This document shows positions 56,582 to 59,761 of a DNA stretch of 64,000 bases, one piece after another. The translations under genes were made by a program, and so were the position numbers. Source of the DNA: Escherichia coli (GTDB taxonomy: Bacteria; Pseudomonadota; Gammaproteobacteria; Enterobacterales; Enterobacteriaceae). The stretch is from assembly GCF_024298765.1 (NCBI RefSeq), contig NZ_CP101210.1. The stretch is one strand, 5' to 3'. Below the pieces are notes generated by a model. It ran no database searches, was not told the DNA's origin, and was given only the letters and a program-made list of their open reading frames with translations. Position 1 is the stretch's first letter, and every line of letters begins with the position of its first letter.

Positions 56582-58246
56582 ATGTGTTCAATTTTTGGCG
56601 TATTCGATATCAAAACAGACGCAGTTGAGCTGCGCAAGAAAGCACTCGAGCTGTCACGCCTGATGCGTCATCGTGGCCCGGACTGGTCCGGTATTTATGC
56701 CAGCGATAACGCCATTCTCGCCCACGAACGTCTGTCCATTGTTGACGTTAACGCGGGGGCGCAACCTCTCTACAACCAACAAAAAACCCACGTGCTGGCA
56801 GTAAACGGTGAAATCTACAACCACCAGGCATTGCGCGCTGAATATGGCGATCGTTACCAGTTCCAGACCGGGTCTGACTGTGAAGTGATCCTCGCGCTGT
56901 ATCAGGAAAAAGGGCCGGAATTTCTCGACGACTTGCAGGGCATGTTTGCCTTTGCCCTGTACGACAGCGAAAAAGATGCCTACCTGATTGGTCGCGACCA
57001 TCTGGGGATCATCCCACTGTATATGGGCTATGACGAACATGGTCAGCTGTATGTGGCCTCAGAAATGAAAGCCCTGGTGCCGGTATGCCGCACGATTAAA
57101 GAGTTCCCGGCGGGGAGCTATTTGTGGAGTCAGGACGGCGAGATCCGTTCTTATTATCACCGCGACTGGTTCGACTACGATGCGGTGAAAGATAACGTGA
57201 CCGACAAAAACGAGCTGCGTCAGGCACTGGAAGAATCCGTTAAAAGCCATCTGATGTCTGATGTGCCTTACGGTGTGCTGCTATCTGGTGGCCTGGATTC
57301 CTCAATTATTTCCGCTATCACCAAGAAATACGCAGCCCGTCGCGTGGAAGATCAGGAACGCTCTGAAGCCTGGTGGCCGCAGCTGCACTCCTTTGCTGTA
57401 GGTCTGCCGGGTTCACCGGATCTGAAGGCAGCCCAGGAAGTGGCAAACCATCTGGGCACTGTGCATCATGAAATTCACTTCACTGTACAGGAAGGTCTGG
57501 ACGCCATCCGCGACGTGATTTACCACATCGAAACCTATGACGTGACGACAATCCGCGCTTCAACACCGATGTATTTAATGTCGCGTAAGATCAAGGCGAT
57601 GGGCATTAAAATGGTGCTGTCCGGTGAAGGATCTGATGAAGTGTTTGGCGGTTATCTATACTTCCACAAAGCGCCGAATGCCAAAGAACTGCATGAAGAG
57701 ACGGTGCGTAAACTGCTGGCCCTGCATATGTATGACTGCGCGCGTGCCAACAAAGCGATGTCAGCCTGGGGCGTGGAAGCACGCGTTCCGTTCCTCGACA
57801 AAAAATTCCTCGACGTGGCGATGCGCATTAACCCACAGGATAAAATGTGCGGTAACGGCAAAATGGAAAAACACATCCTGCGTGAATGTTTTGAAGCGTA
57901 TCTGCCCGCAAGCGTGGCCTGGCGGCAGAAAGAGCAGTTCTCCGATGGCGTCGGTTACAGTTGGATCGACACCCTGAAAGAAGTGGCGGCGCAGCAGGTT
58001 TCTGATCAACAGCTGGAAACTGCCCGCTTCCGCTTCCCGTACAACACGCCGACGTCCAAAGAAGCGTATCTGTACCGCGAGATCTTTGAAGAACTGTTCC
58101 CGCTTCCGAGCGCCGCTGAGTGCGTGCCGGGCGGTCCTTCCGTCGCGTGTTCTTCCGCTAAAGCGATCGAATGGGATGAAGCGTTCAAAAAAATGGACGA
58201 TCCATCTGGTCGTGCGGTTGGTGTTCACCAGTCGGCGTATAAGTAA
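56582..58246 (+). CDS. asnB: asparagine synthetase B (glutamine-hydrolysing)
   Basis: 554 aa from MCSIFGVFDIK within ORF 56501..58246. Confidence 0.95.
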   Translation: MCSIFGVFDIKTDAVELRKKALELSRLMRHRGPDWSGIYASDNAILAHERLSIVDVNAGAQPLYNQQKTHVLAVNGEIYNHQALRAEYGDRYQFQTGSDCEVILALYQEKGPEFLDDLQGMFAFALYDSEKDAYLIGRDHLGIIPLYMGYDEHGQLYVASEMKALVPVCRTIKEFPAGSYLWSQDGEIRSYYHRDWFDYDAVKDNVTDKNELRQALEESVKSHLMSDVPYGVLLSGGLDSSIISAITKKYAARRVEDQERSEAWWPQLHSFAVGLPGSPDLKAAQEVANHLGTVHHEIHFTVQEGLDAIRDVIYHIETYDVTTIRASTPMYLMSRKIKAMGIKMVLSGEGSDEVFGGYLYFHKAPNAKELHEETVRKLLALHMYDCARANKAMSAWGVEARVPFLDKKFLDVAMRINPQDKMCGNGKMEKHILRECFEAYLPASVAWRQKEQFSDGVGYSWIDTLKEVAAQQVSDQQLETARFRFPYNTPTSKEAYLYREIFEELFPLPSAAECVPGGPSVACSSAKAIEWDEAFKKMDDPSGRAVGVHQSAYK

Positions 58247-58255
58247 GAAATGCGA

Positions 58256-58286
58256 AACAGCCCCGGTAAAATCCGGGGCTGTTTCA
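58256..58286. terminator. bidirectional hairpin terminator
   Basis: aaacagccccggtaaaatccggggctgttt between convergent asnB and 58288..58725. Confidence 0.6.
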
Positions 58287-58287
58287 G

Positions 58288-58725
58288 TTATTGAGGTGCT
58301 TGTTGATTCTGATATGCAGTAAGGAAATGTTCCGGGTTTGCCACATCACTGTTTGACAACTCATCACTGTAGGCCACCGACCAGGTCGCCTGCTCATTCG
58401 GAATATGCAGGCTGCCATTCCCCTCTTTCAGGCGTAATAACTCAAAAGATTTGCCCTTAATTACGGCGGTATAGGATTTTTCACCTTCCTGTAATGCTTT
58501 CACTTTACAGCGAAAAATCTGGCCATCGATGTCATTATCAACATGCGATACCTGAATGAGGGCTTCATTAGAGGCTTTCGGCCCTATCCGCATCATCCAC
58601 ACCACAGCGCCTTCCTGCCCACGATAGCCAAAAACATATTTACCGATTTCCGGTTTGACCGTATCGGCAAACGCAGATTGCATAAGTAATAACGCACCCA
58701 TCAGCGCCGTCATAAAACGCAGCAT
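58288..58725 (-). CDS. small secreted protein of unknown function
   Basis: 145 aa, signal peptide MLRFMTALMGALLLMQSAFA, GAGGG Shine-Dalgarno about 7 nt upstream. Confidence 0.55.
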   Translation of the reverse strand: MLRFMTALMGALLLMQSAFADTVKPEIGKYVFGYRGQEGAVVWMMRIGPKASNEALIQVSHVDNDIDGQIFRCKVKALQEGEKSYTAVIKGKSFELLRLKEGNGSLHIPNEQATWSVAYSDELSNSDVANPEHFLTAYQNQQAPQ

Positions 58726-58988
58726 AGTATTCCCTCAATAAATCGCCTGAAGTGGTAGCAGAGATGCAGGCGTAGCGATCCCTGCCCTGTCCTGTTGCAA
58801 CGGGCCAGTATTTCATAGATTAATTTCCCACCACTATTGTAGAATTCCGAATTTCATCCTGTATGACAAAAGAATGGCTGTAGGGTGGGGAAAAAACACA
58901 AAGTAAACAATAATTGACGAATATAGCGCCATGCTGTTCGCAACCTAACCAAACAGTCACTTTCGAGCAATTTTCCTTGAAAAAGAGG

Positions 58989-59017
58989 TTGACGCTGCAA
59001 GGCTCTATACGCATAAT
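58989..59017 (+). promoter_or_regulatory. sigma70 promoter of tRNA operon
   Basis: TTGACG, 17-bp spacer, CATAAT, then GC-rich discriminator gcgccccgc. Confidence 0.5.
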
Positions 59018-59056
59018 GCGCCCCGCAACGCCGATAAGGTATCGCGAAAAAAAGAT

Positions 59057-59133
59057 GGCTACGTAGCTCAGTTGGTTAGAGCACATCACTCATAATGATG
59101 GGGTCACAGGTTCGAATCCCGTCGTAGCCACCA
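59057..59133 (+). tRNA. metT: tRNA-Met (CAU, elongator)
   Basis: ggctacgtagctcagttggttagagc...cca, anticodon loop ctCATaa. Confidence 0.9.
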
Positions 59134-59142
59134 TCTTTTTTT

Positions 59143-59227
59143 GCGGGAGTGGCGAAATTGGTAGACGCACCAGATTTAGGTTCTGGCGCCGCAAGGTGTG
59201 CGAGTTCAAGTCTCGCCTCCCGCACCA
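59143..59227 (+). tRNA. leuW: tRNA-Leu (UAG)
   Basis: 85 nt with long variable arm, anticodon TAG. Confidence 0.85.
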
Positions 59228-59250
59228 TTCACCAGAAAGCGTTGTACGGA

Positions 59251-59325
59251 TGGGGTATCGCCAAGCGGTAAGGCACCGGTTTTTGATACCGGCATTCCCT
59301 GGTTCAAATCCAGGTACCCCAGCCA
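59251..59325 (+). tRNA. glnU: tRNA-Gln (UUG)
   Basis: tggggtatcgccaagcggtaagg..., anticodon TTG. Confidence 0.9.
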
Positions 59326-59359
59326 TCTTCTTCGAGTAAGCGGTTCACCGCCCGGTTAT

Positions 59360-59434
59360 TGGGGTATCGCCAAGCGGTAAGGCACCGGTTTTTGATACCG
59401 GCATTCCCTGGTTCGAATCCAGGTACCCCAGCCA
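59360..59434 (+). tRNA. glnW: tRNA-Gln (UUG)
   Basis: Second copy, one T-arm difference. Confidence 0.9.
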
Positions 59435-59449
59435 TCGAAGAAACAATCT

Positions 59450-59526
59450 GGCTACGTAGCTCAGTTGGTTAGAGCACATCACTCATAATGATGGGGTCAC
59501 AGGTTCGAATCCCGTCGTAGCCACCA
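59450..59526 (+). tRNA. metU: tRNA-Met (CAU, elongator)
   Basis: Same sequence as metT. Confidence 0.9.
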
Positions 59527-59574
59527 AATTCTGAATGTGTCGAATATGTTCGGCAAATTCAAAAACCAATTTGT

Positions 59575-59649
59575 TGGGGTATCGCCAAGCGGTAAGGCAC
59601 CGGATTCTGATTCCGGCATTCCGAGGTTCGAATCCTCGTACCCCAGCCA
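59575..59649 (+). tRNA. glnV: tRNA-Gln (CUG)
   Basis: Anticodon CTG. Confidence 0.9.
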
Positions 59650-59686
59650 CTTTATTCAAGACGCTTACATCGTAAGTGCACCCAGT

Positions 59687-59761
59687 TGGGGTATCGCCAA
59701 GCGGTAAGGCACCGGATTCTGATTCCGGCATTCCGAGGTTCGAATCCTCGTACCCCAGCCA
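59687..59761 (+). tRNA. glnX: tRNA-Gln (CUG)
   Basis: Same sequence as glnV. Confidence 0.9.

What the first reader, a model, noticed from the sequence alone, without database searches (positions are those of the whole stretch)
58288..58725. Secreted 145-aa protein gene between asnB and the tRNA operon
The ORF has a clear signal peptide, a good Shine-Dalgarno and a shared bidirectional terminator with asnB. I do not remember an annotated gene at this position in K-12, so it may be a strain-specific small periplasmic protein or an unannotated conserved one.
Basis: partly seen in the sequence, partly recalled or inferred. Interest (0 to 1): 0.4.

Follow-up and report, generated by a model that had tools for sequence, protein, structure and literature searches.

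The report
Exported barrel protein gene lost in K-12
The ORF is a real, conserved gene for a small exported beta-barrel protein of unknown function that K-12 and about four fifths of E. coli strains have lost through a 431-base deletion, so it is an ordinary variable gene but belongs to a protein family nobody has described.

Summary
Window 58288..58725 (-) is a 145-aa ORF with a Sec-type signal peptide (AFA|DT), a GAGGG Shine-Dalgarno and a 14-bp hairpin shared with the convergent asnB.

It is a real gene. dN/dS is 0.05-0.09 against a B2 E. coli allele and a Salmonella ortholog. Syntenic orthologs occur in Salmonella and Pseudocitrobacter, and near-identical proteins are recorded in E. albertii, E. 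marmotae and E. ruysiae. AlphaFold2 gives pLDDT 94.

RefSeq already annotates it, as "hypothetical protein" WP_000943489.1. It is present in 985 of 5,426 complete E. coli genomes, including ST131 and APEC strains. K-12 and the rest carry the same 431-bp deletion (58372..58802) between GGCCA repeats, which leaves the last 84 nt. About one in six carriers has a clonal frameshift.

The protein is an eight-stranded beta-barrel with a C-terminal helix. Its family has about 200 clusters at 50% identity and matches no Pfam or NCBIfam model. It is always a solitary gene. Occasionally it is the outer domain of membrane proteins with cytoplasmic TIR or cyclase domains.

The nearest small folds are the lysozyme inhibitors PliC, PhiA and ACP, but their motifs, disulphide and key loop are absent. 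Most likely it is a non-enzymatic periplasmic binding module whose ligand is unknown. Interest is modest.

The parts
58288..58725 (-). Coding sequence of the 145-aa protein (RefSeq WP_000943489.1, 'hypothetical protein'), stop codon included
   Evidence: dN/dS 0.05-0.09
58666..58725 (-). Codons 1-20: predicted Sec (type I) signal peptide MLRFMTALMGALLLMQSAFA, with cleavage expected after A20
   Evidence: Sequence rules. This part is the least confident in both models. 49 of 50 family members have an N-terminal hydrophobic run.
58291..58665 (-). Mature domain, residues 21-145 (13.9 kDa, pI 5.6): N-terminal K/R-P-E segment, eight beta strands, short helix, C-terminal helix 131-142
   Evidence: AlphaFold2 gave pLDDT 85 with 15 sequences and 93.9 with 50, with the same topology
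58732..58736 (-). Shine-Dalgarno GAGGG, 6 nt upstream of the ATG
   Evidence: invariant across four orthologous loci
58253..58286 (.). G+C-rich hairpin (14 pairs) between the convergent stops of asnB and the ORF; intrinsic-terminator-like on the ORF strand
58807..58815 (-). Candidate extended -10 element TGAAATACT (TGn + AATACT). It is conserved in E. coli, Salmonella and Pseudocitrobacter. This is inference only; no matching -35 was found.
   Evidence: alignment; not reported by the consensus scan
58844..58860 (-). Conserved upstream block AGGATGAAATTCGGAAT of unknown role; possibly a regulator site
58372..58802 (.). 431-bp segment missing from K-12 MG1655 and from about 82% of complete E. 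coli genomes. It removes codons 1-118 and the 77 nt upstream of them.
58372..58376 (.). Left GGCCA copy of the 5-bp direct repeat that flanks the deletion
58803..58807 (.). Right GGCCA copy of the 5-bp direct repeat that flanks the deletion
58288..58371 (-). ORF tail (codons 119-145 plus stop) that survives as an unannotated remnant in K-12-type genomes
   Evidence: tblastn matches to residues 117-145 only
58477..58481 (.). Run of five T (A5 on the coding strand) where one clonal E. coli allele has lost a base, giving an 88-aa truncated product

Best explanation
SHOWN. This is a genuine protein-coding gene under purifying selection. It is ancestral at the asnB/metT locus of Escherichia and its relatives. 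K-12 and most E. coli lost it through one 431-bp deletion between GGCCA repeats. The product carries a Sec-type signal peptide. It is confidently predicted to fold as a compact eight-stranded up-and-down beta-barrel, clamped by an N-terminal segment and a C-terminal helix. It belongs to a family that no Pfam or NCBIfam model covers.

INFERRED. The mature 125-aa protein is released into the periplasm and works as a non-enzymatic binding module.

Conservation points to the binding site. The strongest signal is the beta3-beta4 loop (family consensus G-I-D-H-x-W-D; V-D-N-D-I-D-G in E. coli). The other alternate loops (beta1-2, beta5-6, beta7-8) each keep one or two near-invariant residues. If the predicted up-and-down topology holds, these four loops share one end of the barrel, which is the end that forms the ligand mouth in lipocalins and avidins.

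In a few relatives the same domain sits outside the membrane, behind a transmembrane helix and a cytoplasmic TIR or class III cyclase domain. It is therefore probably a ligand-recognition domain. The free E. coli form would bind, buffer or mask a periplasmic or incoming ligand. The acidic loop suggests a polar or cationic ligand, a sugar or a metal, but this is the weakest step.

The gene is dispensable in E. coli.
For: Real gene:
- dN/dS is 0.053 against the B2 allele and 0.08 against the Salmonella ortholog.
- Synteny is conserved in Salmonella and Pseudocitrobacter.
- There are 48 close homologs, including E. albertii, E. marmotae and E. ruysiae.

Deletion polarity:
- K-12 and strain CUVM53 lack exactly 58372..58802 but keep the ORF tail.
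- 985 of 5,426 genomes keep the segment.

Fold:
- pLDDT is 85 and 93.9 with two alignments, both giving eight strands plus a C-terminal helix.

Export:
- The signal peptide passes the sequence rules, and 49 of 50 members have a hydrophobic N-terminus.
- One member has a lipobox-like N-terminus, and the fusion proteins place the domain after a transmembrane segment that follows a run of lysines.

Binding module rather than enzyme:
- No catalytic family is matched.
- By element, L3 is the most conserved (2.74 bits). D63 is conserved in 98% of members, H64 in 82% and G48 in 98%.
- The domain is fused to TIR (P0121, P0176) and to a class III cyclase (P0076).

Stand-alone action: nine unrelated genomic contexts share no neighbour.
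Against: No ligand, partner or phenotype is known.

No model coordinates were available, so I could not check for a cavity or confirm that the conserved loops cluster.

Much of the conservation (beta1-beta3, the N-terminal segment, the C-terminal helix) may be purely structural.

The E. coli clade has replaced the family's His and Trp in the key loop (DHxWD to DNDID), so its ligand may differ from that of the rest of the family.

The DxDxDG-like calcium motif seen in E. coli occurs in only 3 of 50 members.

No sigma-70 promoter passed the scan, and no expression data were found.

Loss by deletion in about 82% of genomes, plus a frameshift lineage, shows weak or niche-specific selection in E. 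coli.
Confidence: 0.55

Rival explanations
1. It is a periplasmic proteinaceous inhibitor of a lysozyme-type muramidase, a functional analogue of PliC/MliC, Neisseria ACP or Brucella PhiA. The target could be a host lysozyme, an endogenous lytic transglycosylase or an injected peptidoglycan hydrolase. Binding the enzyme would protect the cell wall.

For: Like pliC and mliC it is a solitary gene for a small exported barrel.

ACP is a precedent for a barrel with the PliC fold, none of the family motifs and real anti-lysozyme activity (PMC5507604).

PhiA inhibits the autolysin SagA (PMC8334348).

The gene is retained in extraintestinal pathogenic lineages such as ST131 and APEC.
Against: - Foldseek finds nothing at E<=0.001, and TM-scores normalised to the query are about 0.4 (0.64 on the shorter PliC chain). 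Factor-H binding protein, avidins, outer-membrane barrels and de novo barrels score similarly, so the fold match is generic.
- No member matches the Pfam MliC model.
- hhalign against E. coli MliC aligns only the signal peptide (probability 6.8%).
- SxSGxxY occurs in 2 of 50 members and Yxxx[TS]KG in 0 of 50.
- 37 of 50 members have no cysteine, so the conserved disulphide is absent.
- Loop 4, the lysozyme-inserting loop in MliC, PliC and ACP, is the least conserved element here (0.80 bits).
Confidence: 0.2
2. It is an orphan immunity protein that neutralises a periplasm-acting toxin delivered by competitors (a type VI effector, contact-dependent inhibition toxin or bacteriocin), kept without its cognate toxin gene.
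For: It is small, exported, solitary, patchily distributed and repeatedly lost.

One homolog lies about 860 bp from a PAAR-domain gene.
Against: - Position is conserved between housekeeping genes in Escherichia, Salmonella and Pseudocitrobacter, with strong purifying selection and no toxin gene nearby.
- Only 1 of 9 contexts has any secretion-related neighbour.
- There is no match in the PADLOC defence library. That library does not cover toxin immunity, so this is weak evidence.
- Immunity proteins usually evolve fast, whereas this one is 64-71% identical across enterobacterial genera.
Confidence: 0.08
3. In E. coli the ORF is a decaying relic. It was once functional in the ancestor, is now not expressed or not needed, and persists in some lineages only because it has not yet been hit.
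For: - About 82% of genomes carry the deletion.
- A further lineage carries a frameshift, in 4 of 4 genomes checked and about 7 of 40 evenly sampled carriers.
- No consensus sigma-70 promoter was found.
- G+C is 46.6%, against 53% for asnB.
- No mention was found in searchable papers.
Against: dN/dS is 0.053 between two intact E. coli alleles at dS 0.17, which indicates continuing constraint within the species.

The Shine-Dalgarno and several upstream blocks are conserved out to Pseudocitrobacter.

The gene is intact in the very successful ST131 clone.
Confidence: 0.1
4. It is a chance open reading frame in an intergenic region and not a gene.
For: ORFs of this length arise by chance in this window; antisense ORFs of 155 and 164 aa lie nearby.
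Against: dN/dS is far below 1. Homologs reach Xanthomonas, Massilia and Acidobacteria. The model has pLDDT 94. A conserved signal peptide and Shine-Dalgarno are present.
Confidence: 0.01

Closest known systems
PliC/MliC periplasmic and membrane-bound inhibitors of c-type lysozyme (COG3895, Pfam MliC PF09864)
   Different: No sequence or profile similarity. The SxSGAxY and YxxxTKG motifs are absent. There is no disulphide. Loop 4 is the least conserved element rather than the functional one. An extra C-terminal helix and a conserved N-terminal RPE segment are present.
Neisseria adhesin complex protein ACP (lysozyme inhibitor with the PliC fold but without its motifs; PMC5507604)
   Different: ACP keeps the beta1-beta8 disulphide and uses a long loop 4; here there is neither. 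The only profile hit to ACP (5my7, E 0.32) covers profile positions 5-46, which are mostly signal peptide.
Brucella PhiA, inhibitor of the SagA autolysin (PMC8334348)
   Different: 18% identity over 80 aligned residues. No family-level sequence link was found. No hydrolase partner gene lies next to this ORF in any context.
Calycins: lipocalins and avidins (ligand-binding eight-stranded barrels)
   Different: No Pfam lipocalin or avidin match. The mature protein is only 125 aa with short strands. The presence of an internal cavity could not be checked.
C-terminal barrel domains of D-aminopeptidase and PBP-related serine hydrolases (1ei5, 2qmi, 4whi, 5hal)
   Different: The 1ei5 superposition is poor (rmsd 7.2 A). 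Those barrels are domains of larger enzymes, whereas this is a free exported protein with no sequence similarity to them.

Membership tests
MliC/PliC lysozyme inhibitors (COG3895 / PF09864) | Eight-stranded antiparallel beta-barrel | tested here: met
MliC/PliC lysozyme inhibitors (COG3895 / PF09864) | Sequence or profile match to the family model | tested here: not met
   The ORF has no Pfam family at E<=1. No MliC hit appears among the 25 most frequent of the 27 families matched by the 50 family members. hhalign of the family profile against E. coli MliC gives probability 6.8%, over the signal peptide only.
MliC/PliC lysozyme inhibitors (COG3895 / PF09864) | SxSGAxY motif on loop 4 (beta4-beta5), which enters the lysozyme active site (PMC5507604) | tested here: not met
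   SxSGxxY is found in 2 of 50 members and not in the E. coli protein. Loop 4 is the least conserved element (0.80 bits).
MliC/PliC lysozyme inhibitors (COG3895 / PF09864) | YxxxTKG motif on strand beta6 | tested here: not met
   0 of 50 members have Yxxx[TS]KG. E. coli has Y85-TAV-I-K-G, but position 90 is D, N or K across the family.
MliC/PliC lysozyme inhibitors (COG3895 / PF09864) | Conserved disulphide linking beta1 and beta8 | tested here: not met
   The E. coli protein has a single Cys (C73). 37 of 50 members have no Cys in the mature domain.
MliC/PliC lysozyme inhibitors (COG3895 / PF09864) | Inhibition of c-type lysozyme | not testable with these tools
   This needs purified protein and a lysozyme activity assay.
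Neisseria ACP-type lysozyme inhibitors | Sequence relationship to ACP, and a long loop 4 plus disulphide | tested here: not met
   The profile search of PDB sequences gives 5my7 (depositor's name 'Adhesin') at E 0.32 over profile positions 5-46 only. There is no disulphide. Loop 4 is short and variable.
Sec-dependent (type I) signal peptide | Positive n-region, hydrophobic h-region of 7-15 residues, small residues at -3 and -1, no lipobox, no twin arginine | tested here: met
   R3; FMTALMGALLLM; A18-F-A20|D21. The signal peptide consensus is kept in 15 enterobacterial homologs. The check was rule-based only; no SignalP run and no experiment.
Lipocalin / calycin ligand-binding barrels | Eight-stranded barrel followed by a C-terminal helix packed on the barrel | tested here: met
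   Secondary-structure order E x8, H121-124, H131-142. Packing of the helix on the barrel is inferred from conservation, not seen in coordinates.
Lipocalin / calycin ligand-binding barrels | Lipocalin sequence signatures or a family model match | tested here: not met
   No Pfam hit for the ORF at E<=1, and no lipocalin or avidin family among those listed for the 50 relatives.
Lipocalin / calycin ligand-binding barrels | Internal ligand cavity open at the L1/L3/L5/L7 end | not testable with these tools
Only the loop conservation pattern points to that end.
DUF4367 (the name UniRef gives the Pseudocitrobacter homolog P0028) | Match to the Pfam model | tested here: not met
   P0028 has 0 Pfam families at E<=10.
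Rho-independent terminator | G+C-rich hairpin followed by a T tract | tested here: met
   14 pairs, 9 of them G-C, with tail CATTTCTTAC on the minus strand. On the plus (asnB) strand the T tract is below the scan's threshold.

The most novel reading that the evidence does not exclude
The ORF is the E. coli representative of an undescribed extracytoplasmic ligand-recognition domain. It is an eight-stranded barrel with a conserved G-I-D-H-x-W-D mouth loop. Bacteria use it both as a free periplasmic binder and as the outside sensor of single-pass membrane proteins whose cytoplasmic output is a TIR domain or a class III nucleotide cyclase. That would make it a new input domain for transmembrane, possibly defence-type, signalling. 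The B2/ST131 lineages would then retain a sensing or protective capacity that K-12 has lost.
Probability: 0.3. Interest if true: 0.55.

Novelty: new member of a known kind. Interest (0 to 1): 0.3.

Why it matters
Four reasons.

- It is one more example of an ancestral gene that the laboratory reference strain lacks. Work based on K-12 has therefore never seen it, while the globally dominant extraintestinal clone ST131 and avian pathogenic strains keep it intact.
- The family has about 200 clusters at 50% identity across Proteobacteria and Acidobacteria and no Pfam or NCBIfam model. It is confidently foldable, so it is an easy target for family curation and for a first biochemical assignment.
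- If it proved to be a hydrolase inhibitor or a sensor domain, that would add a further sequence-unrelated class of periplasmic barrel binders next to MliC/PliC, ACP and PhiA.
- The clean presence, deletion and frameshift states also make a convenient lineage marker.

None of this is surprising in kind. Variable small exported proteins of unknown function are common in E. coli.

Tried and rejected
- Pfam and NCBIfam scans of the ORF: no family at E<=1.
- Pfam on 50 relatives: only scattered chance hits.
- UniRef's 'DUF4367' label: not reproduced.
- PDB sequence searches with the single protein and with the profile: nothing significant.
- Foldseek against PDB and against viral structures: no match at E<=0.001.
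- The AlphaFold-database library was not available.
- hhalign against E. coli MliC: signal peptide only.
- PADLOC and PHROGs: no hit for the ORF. Only the TIR and cyclase parts of the fusion proteins match defence models.
- Phage and plasmid collections: no phage copy. The 'plasmid' hits are megabase records, that is, chromosomes or chromids. The gene is therefore not carried by mobile elements.
- Gene-neighbourhood analysis in nine contexts: no shared neighbour.
- Association with tRNA genes: only 2 independent cases besides the syntenic locus. Rejected as a rule.
- Rfam and folding of the leader: no RNA family, z-score 0.1.
- Sigma-70 promoter scan: nothing for the ORF. By-eye checks for sigma-E, sigma-32 and sigma-54 boxes were unconvincing.
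- Calcium-binding DxDxDG idea: present in only 3 of 50 members, so it is not a family feature.
- Literature searches by accession, by peptide strings and by locus phrases: nothing on this gene.

Full report
LOCUS. The window is Escherichia coli chromosome: umpH/nagD, asnB (56582..58246, +), the ORF (58288..58725, -), then the metT-leuW-glnU-glnW-metU-glnV-glnX tRNA operon (59057..59761, +) and ubiF (-). It is 100% identical over this stretch to strain 20Ec-P-124, and the ORF segment is identical in APEC 102026 and others.

CHECK OF THE OBSERVATION. The ORF is there exactly as described: ATG at 58725, TAA at 58288-58290, 145 codons.
- The N-terminus MLRFMTALMGALLLMQSAFA|DT has one positive charge, a 12-residue hydrophobic core and A-x-A before the predicted cleavage site. 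It has no lipobox and no twin arginine.
- GAGGG lies 6 nt upstream of the ATG and is invariant in the Salmonella and Pseudocitrobacter loci.
- A hairpin of 14 pairs (58253..58286) fills the 41 nt between the two convergent stop codons. The scan scores it as a terminator on the ORF's strand only.
- Length alone proves nothing, since antisense ORFs of 155 and 164 aa occur within asnB and nagD.

IS IT A GENE? Yes.
- Pairwise Nei-Gojobori estimates give dN/dS of 0.053 against the B2-type E. coli allele (dS 0.17) and 0.08 against a Salmonella ortholog (dS 0.77). More distant pairs are saturated at synonymous sites but keep low dN.
- The Salmonella-labelled locus is genuinely Salmonella-like: asnB is 87.7% and ubiF 78.8% identical to the window.
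- A word-indexed search of 5.8 billion proteins gave 48 hits. These include E. albertii, E. marmotae, E. ruysiae, Salmonella enterica, Pseudocitrobacter and Superficieibacter, and every hit that carries a name is called hypothetical, except one UniRef 'DUF4367' label.
- In Pseudocitrobacter and Salmonella the gene sits in the same place, between the seven-tRNA operon and asnB.
- RefSeq annotates it in E. coli as hypothetical protein WP_000943489.1 (this allele) and WP_000943484.1 (ST131). The gene is therefore known to databases but uncharacterised.
- I found no paper that mentions it by accession, peptide or locus.

WHY K-12 LACKS IT. The 431 bases 58372..58802 occur in 985 of 5,426 complete E. 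coli genomes, once each and always on the chromosome. All but two of the other genomes match only the flanks.
- Alignment with strain CUVM53 and with K-12 MG1655 shows one clean 431-bp gap. It is bounded by GGCCA at 58372-58376 and 58803-58807, with 433 of 439 flanking positions identical.
- The gap removes codons 1-118 and 77 nt upstream. The last 27 codons, the stop and the hairpin remain as an unannotated remnant.
- The outgroups have the full gene at this locus and K-12 keeps its tail, so this is a deletion in the K-12-type lineages and not an insertion in the carriers.
- Among carriers, 7 of 40 evenly spaced hits have a 430-nt match. All four that I opened share the same loss of one base in the A5 run (window 58477-58481) and are flagged 'frameshifted' in RefSeq. 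The product is 88 aa.
- E. coli therefore shows three states: intact (roughly 15% of genomes, including ST131 and APEC), frameshifted (roughly 3%) and deleted (about 82%).

WHAT THE PROTEIN IS. Neither Pfam nor NCBIfam has a model for it.
- AlphaFold2 with 15 enterobacterial sequences gave pLDDT 85. With 50 diverse relatives it gave pLDDT 93.9 and pTM 0.81. Both show the same layout: signal helix, eight strands (32-36, 41-47, 54-60, 69-77, 83-89, 92-100, 103-107, 114-119), a short helix and a C-terminal helix at 131-142.
- Foldseek finds nothing at E<=0.001 in PDB or in viral models. Its best hits are factor-H binding protein barrels at TM about 0.4.
- The fold class is therefore secure, but it points to no specific relative.

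THE WIDER FAMILY. A profile search of 1.84 billion representatives found 200 clusters at E<=0.001, 102 of them at E<=1e-10.
- Most are 135-160 aa with their own signal peptide.
- Named sources include Xanthomonas, Massilia and a Blastocatellia MAG, and all entries are 'hypothetical'.
- The family consensus is RPEVGxYVKAYxGxEGxxVWxxRxGP...EALVQIxGIDHxWD...Y.....G...GELYLP...Y...LS...HFLTxYLxQ.
- Variants include a tandem duplicate, a form with a lipobox-like N-terminus, and forms with a Cys-rich C-terminal extension.
- There are also single-pass membrane proteins in which a cytoplasmic TIR domain (P0121, P0176) or a class III cyclase (P0076) is followed by a transmembrane helix and then this barrel.
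- This architecture, together with signal-peptide-like N-termini in 49 of 50 members, places the domain outside the cytoplasm. It also suggests that the domain recognises something.
- Nine genomic contexts were examined: asnB/tRNA, amiC/mltA, TonB receptor/ptsG, ispA/Zip, ftsH/folP, valS/DUF2147, PAAR/PRK, transglutaminase/HNH and a TIR fusion next to molybdoenzymes. They share no neighbour, so the gene acts alone and operon logic gives no clue.
- It is not on phages or true plasmids.

TEST OF THE LYSOZYME-INHIBITOR IDEA. The features that define MliC/PliC are taken from PMC5507604 and PMC2267010. They are the eight-stranded barrel, the COG3895 sequence domain, SxSGAxY on loop 4, YxxxTKG on beta6 and a beta1-beta8 disulphide.
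- Only the barrel is met.
- No member hits the Pfam MliC model.
- hhalign against E. coli MliC aligns only the signal peptides (probability 6.8%).
- SxSGxxY occurs in 2 of 50 members and Yxxx[TS]KG in none.
- E. coli's Y85-TAVI-K-G looks similar, but position 90 is not conserved.
- 37 of 50 members have no cysteine.
- Loop 4 is the least conserved element of the family (0.80 bits, against 2.74 for loop 3).
- ACP shows that a motif-less barrel can still inhibit lysozyme, and PhiA inhibits an autolysin. The function therefore remains possible, at about 0.2, but membership is excluded.

MOST LIKELY MECHANISM. Conservation falls into two groups.
- The first group is the N-terminal RPE segment, the outward-facing residues of beta1-beta3 (V42, R46, E54, Q58) and the C-terminal helix (F134, L135, T136, Y138, Q141). 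I read this as a structural clamp of the helix on the barrel.
- The second group is the loops L1 (E38-G39), L3 (D63 98%, H64 82%, W66, D67), L5 (G91) and L7 (P109). In an up-and-down barrel these lie at one end, which is the ligand mouth of lipocalins and avidins.
- I therefore propose a non-enzymatic binding module with its site at that mouth. It would act free in the periplasm in E. coli and serve as a sensor domain in the fusion proteins.
- The Escherichia clade has DNDIDG in place of DHxWD, so its ligand may have shifted. The resemblance to a DxDxDG calcium loop holds in only 3 of 50 members and carries little weight.
- The steps that are shown are gene reality, the deletion history, the fold class, family extent and the failed MliC membership. 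The steps that are inferred are export, the binding function, the site and the ligand class.

REGULATION. No consensus sigma-70 promoter was found for the ORF. The only promoter-like site is the metT promoter at 58989..59017.
- Footprinting across four loci shows conserved blocks. One is TGAAATACT (58807..58815, minus strand), which reads as an extended -10. Others are AGGATGAAATTCGGAAT (58844..58860), CAATAGTG and GACAGGGCAGG...GCGCCTGCAT in the leader.
- The leader does not fold better than shuffled sequence (z 0.1), and no Rfam family matches it.
- These signals are candidates only.

VERDICT. The gene is an ordinary variable exported protein gene that is already annotated as hypothetical. 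The added value is threefold: the exact deletion that explains its absence from K-12, a second independent inactivation, and the recognition that it belongs to a sizeable, confidently folded family absent from the protein family libraries searched here, one that also serves as the outer domain of TIR and cyclase membrane proteins. Interest is 0.3.

Noticed in passing
window 58477-58481: One clonal E. coli lineage has lost one base in this A5/T5 run. That is about 7 of 40 evenly sampled carriers, and 4 of 4 checked: MS14387, NMBU-W13E19, CB6886 and JSWP006. The ORF is truncated to 88 aa and RefSeq flags it 'frameshifted'. This is a second, independent inactivation besides the 431-bp deletion.
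   Followed up: yes
window 58803-58815 and 58253-58371: K-12-type genomes keep the conserved TGAAATACT box right at the deletion junction, plus the 84-nt ORF tail and the terminator hairpin. If that box is a promoter, K-12 would make an orphan transcript of roughly 115 nt between asnB and metT. No Rfam family matches it and nothing is annotated there.
   Followed up: partly
L021 (E. coli OkiPb01715) 310-747 versus L005 4001-4438: Four E. coli genomes carry a divergent allele, 88% identical to the window. In OkiPb01715 it is 94% identical to the ortholog in a Salmonella-labelled assembly. That is closer than to other E. coli alleles, which hints at recombination or a divergent lineage.
   Followed up: partly
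P0121, P0176, P0076 (locus L013 5001-5993 for P0121): Distant relatives carry the barrel as the C-terminal, extracytoplasmic part of single-pass membrane proteins. Their cytoplasmic N-terminus is a TIR domain or a class III cyclase, and those parts resemble Thoeris/Argonaute-associated TIR and Pycsar cyclase models in PADLOC.
   Followed up: partly
P0124, P0125, P0145 (about 270 aa): A subgroup has the barrel followed by a C-terminal domain of about 125 aa with several conserved-looking cysteines and no Pfam match. This may be another undescribed domain.
   Followed up: no
P0103 (744 aa): One hit has long low-complexity Ser/Asn/Pro-rich regions and a response-regulator receiver domain upstream of the barrel. 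It looks eukaryotic (fungal-like) or chimeric.
   Followed up: no
L007 4001-4447 and L009 5001-5429: In two other enterobacterial-type metagenome contigs the homolog (54-57% identical) sits at quite different loci, between amiC and mltA and between a TonB-dependent receptor and ptsG. The single gene has therefore moved between housekeeping neighbourhoods. A tRNA-Met gene lies about 800 bp from it in L007.
   Followed up: partly
window 59057-59761 and hit H3: The metT tRNA operon has seven genes here, as in K-12. At least one strain (AH19B041) shows three rather than two tRNA-Gln genes under the match, which suggests copy-number variation in the Gln repeats.
   Followed up: no
window 58726-59056: The ORF has 46.6% G+C (GC3 48%), against 53% (GC3 60%) for asnB. 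This is lower than its neighbours although the gene is ancestral at this locus.
   Followed up: no
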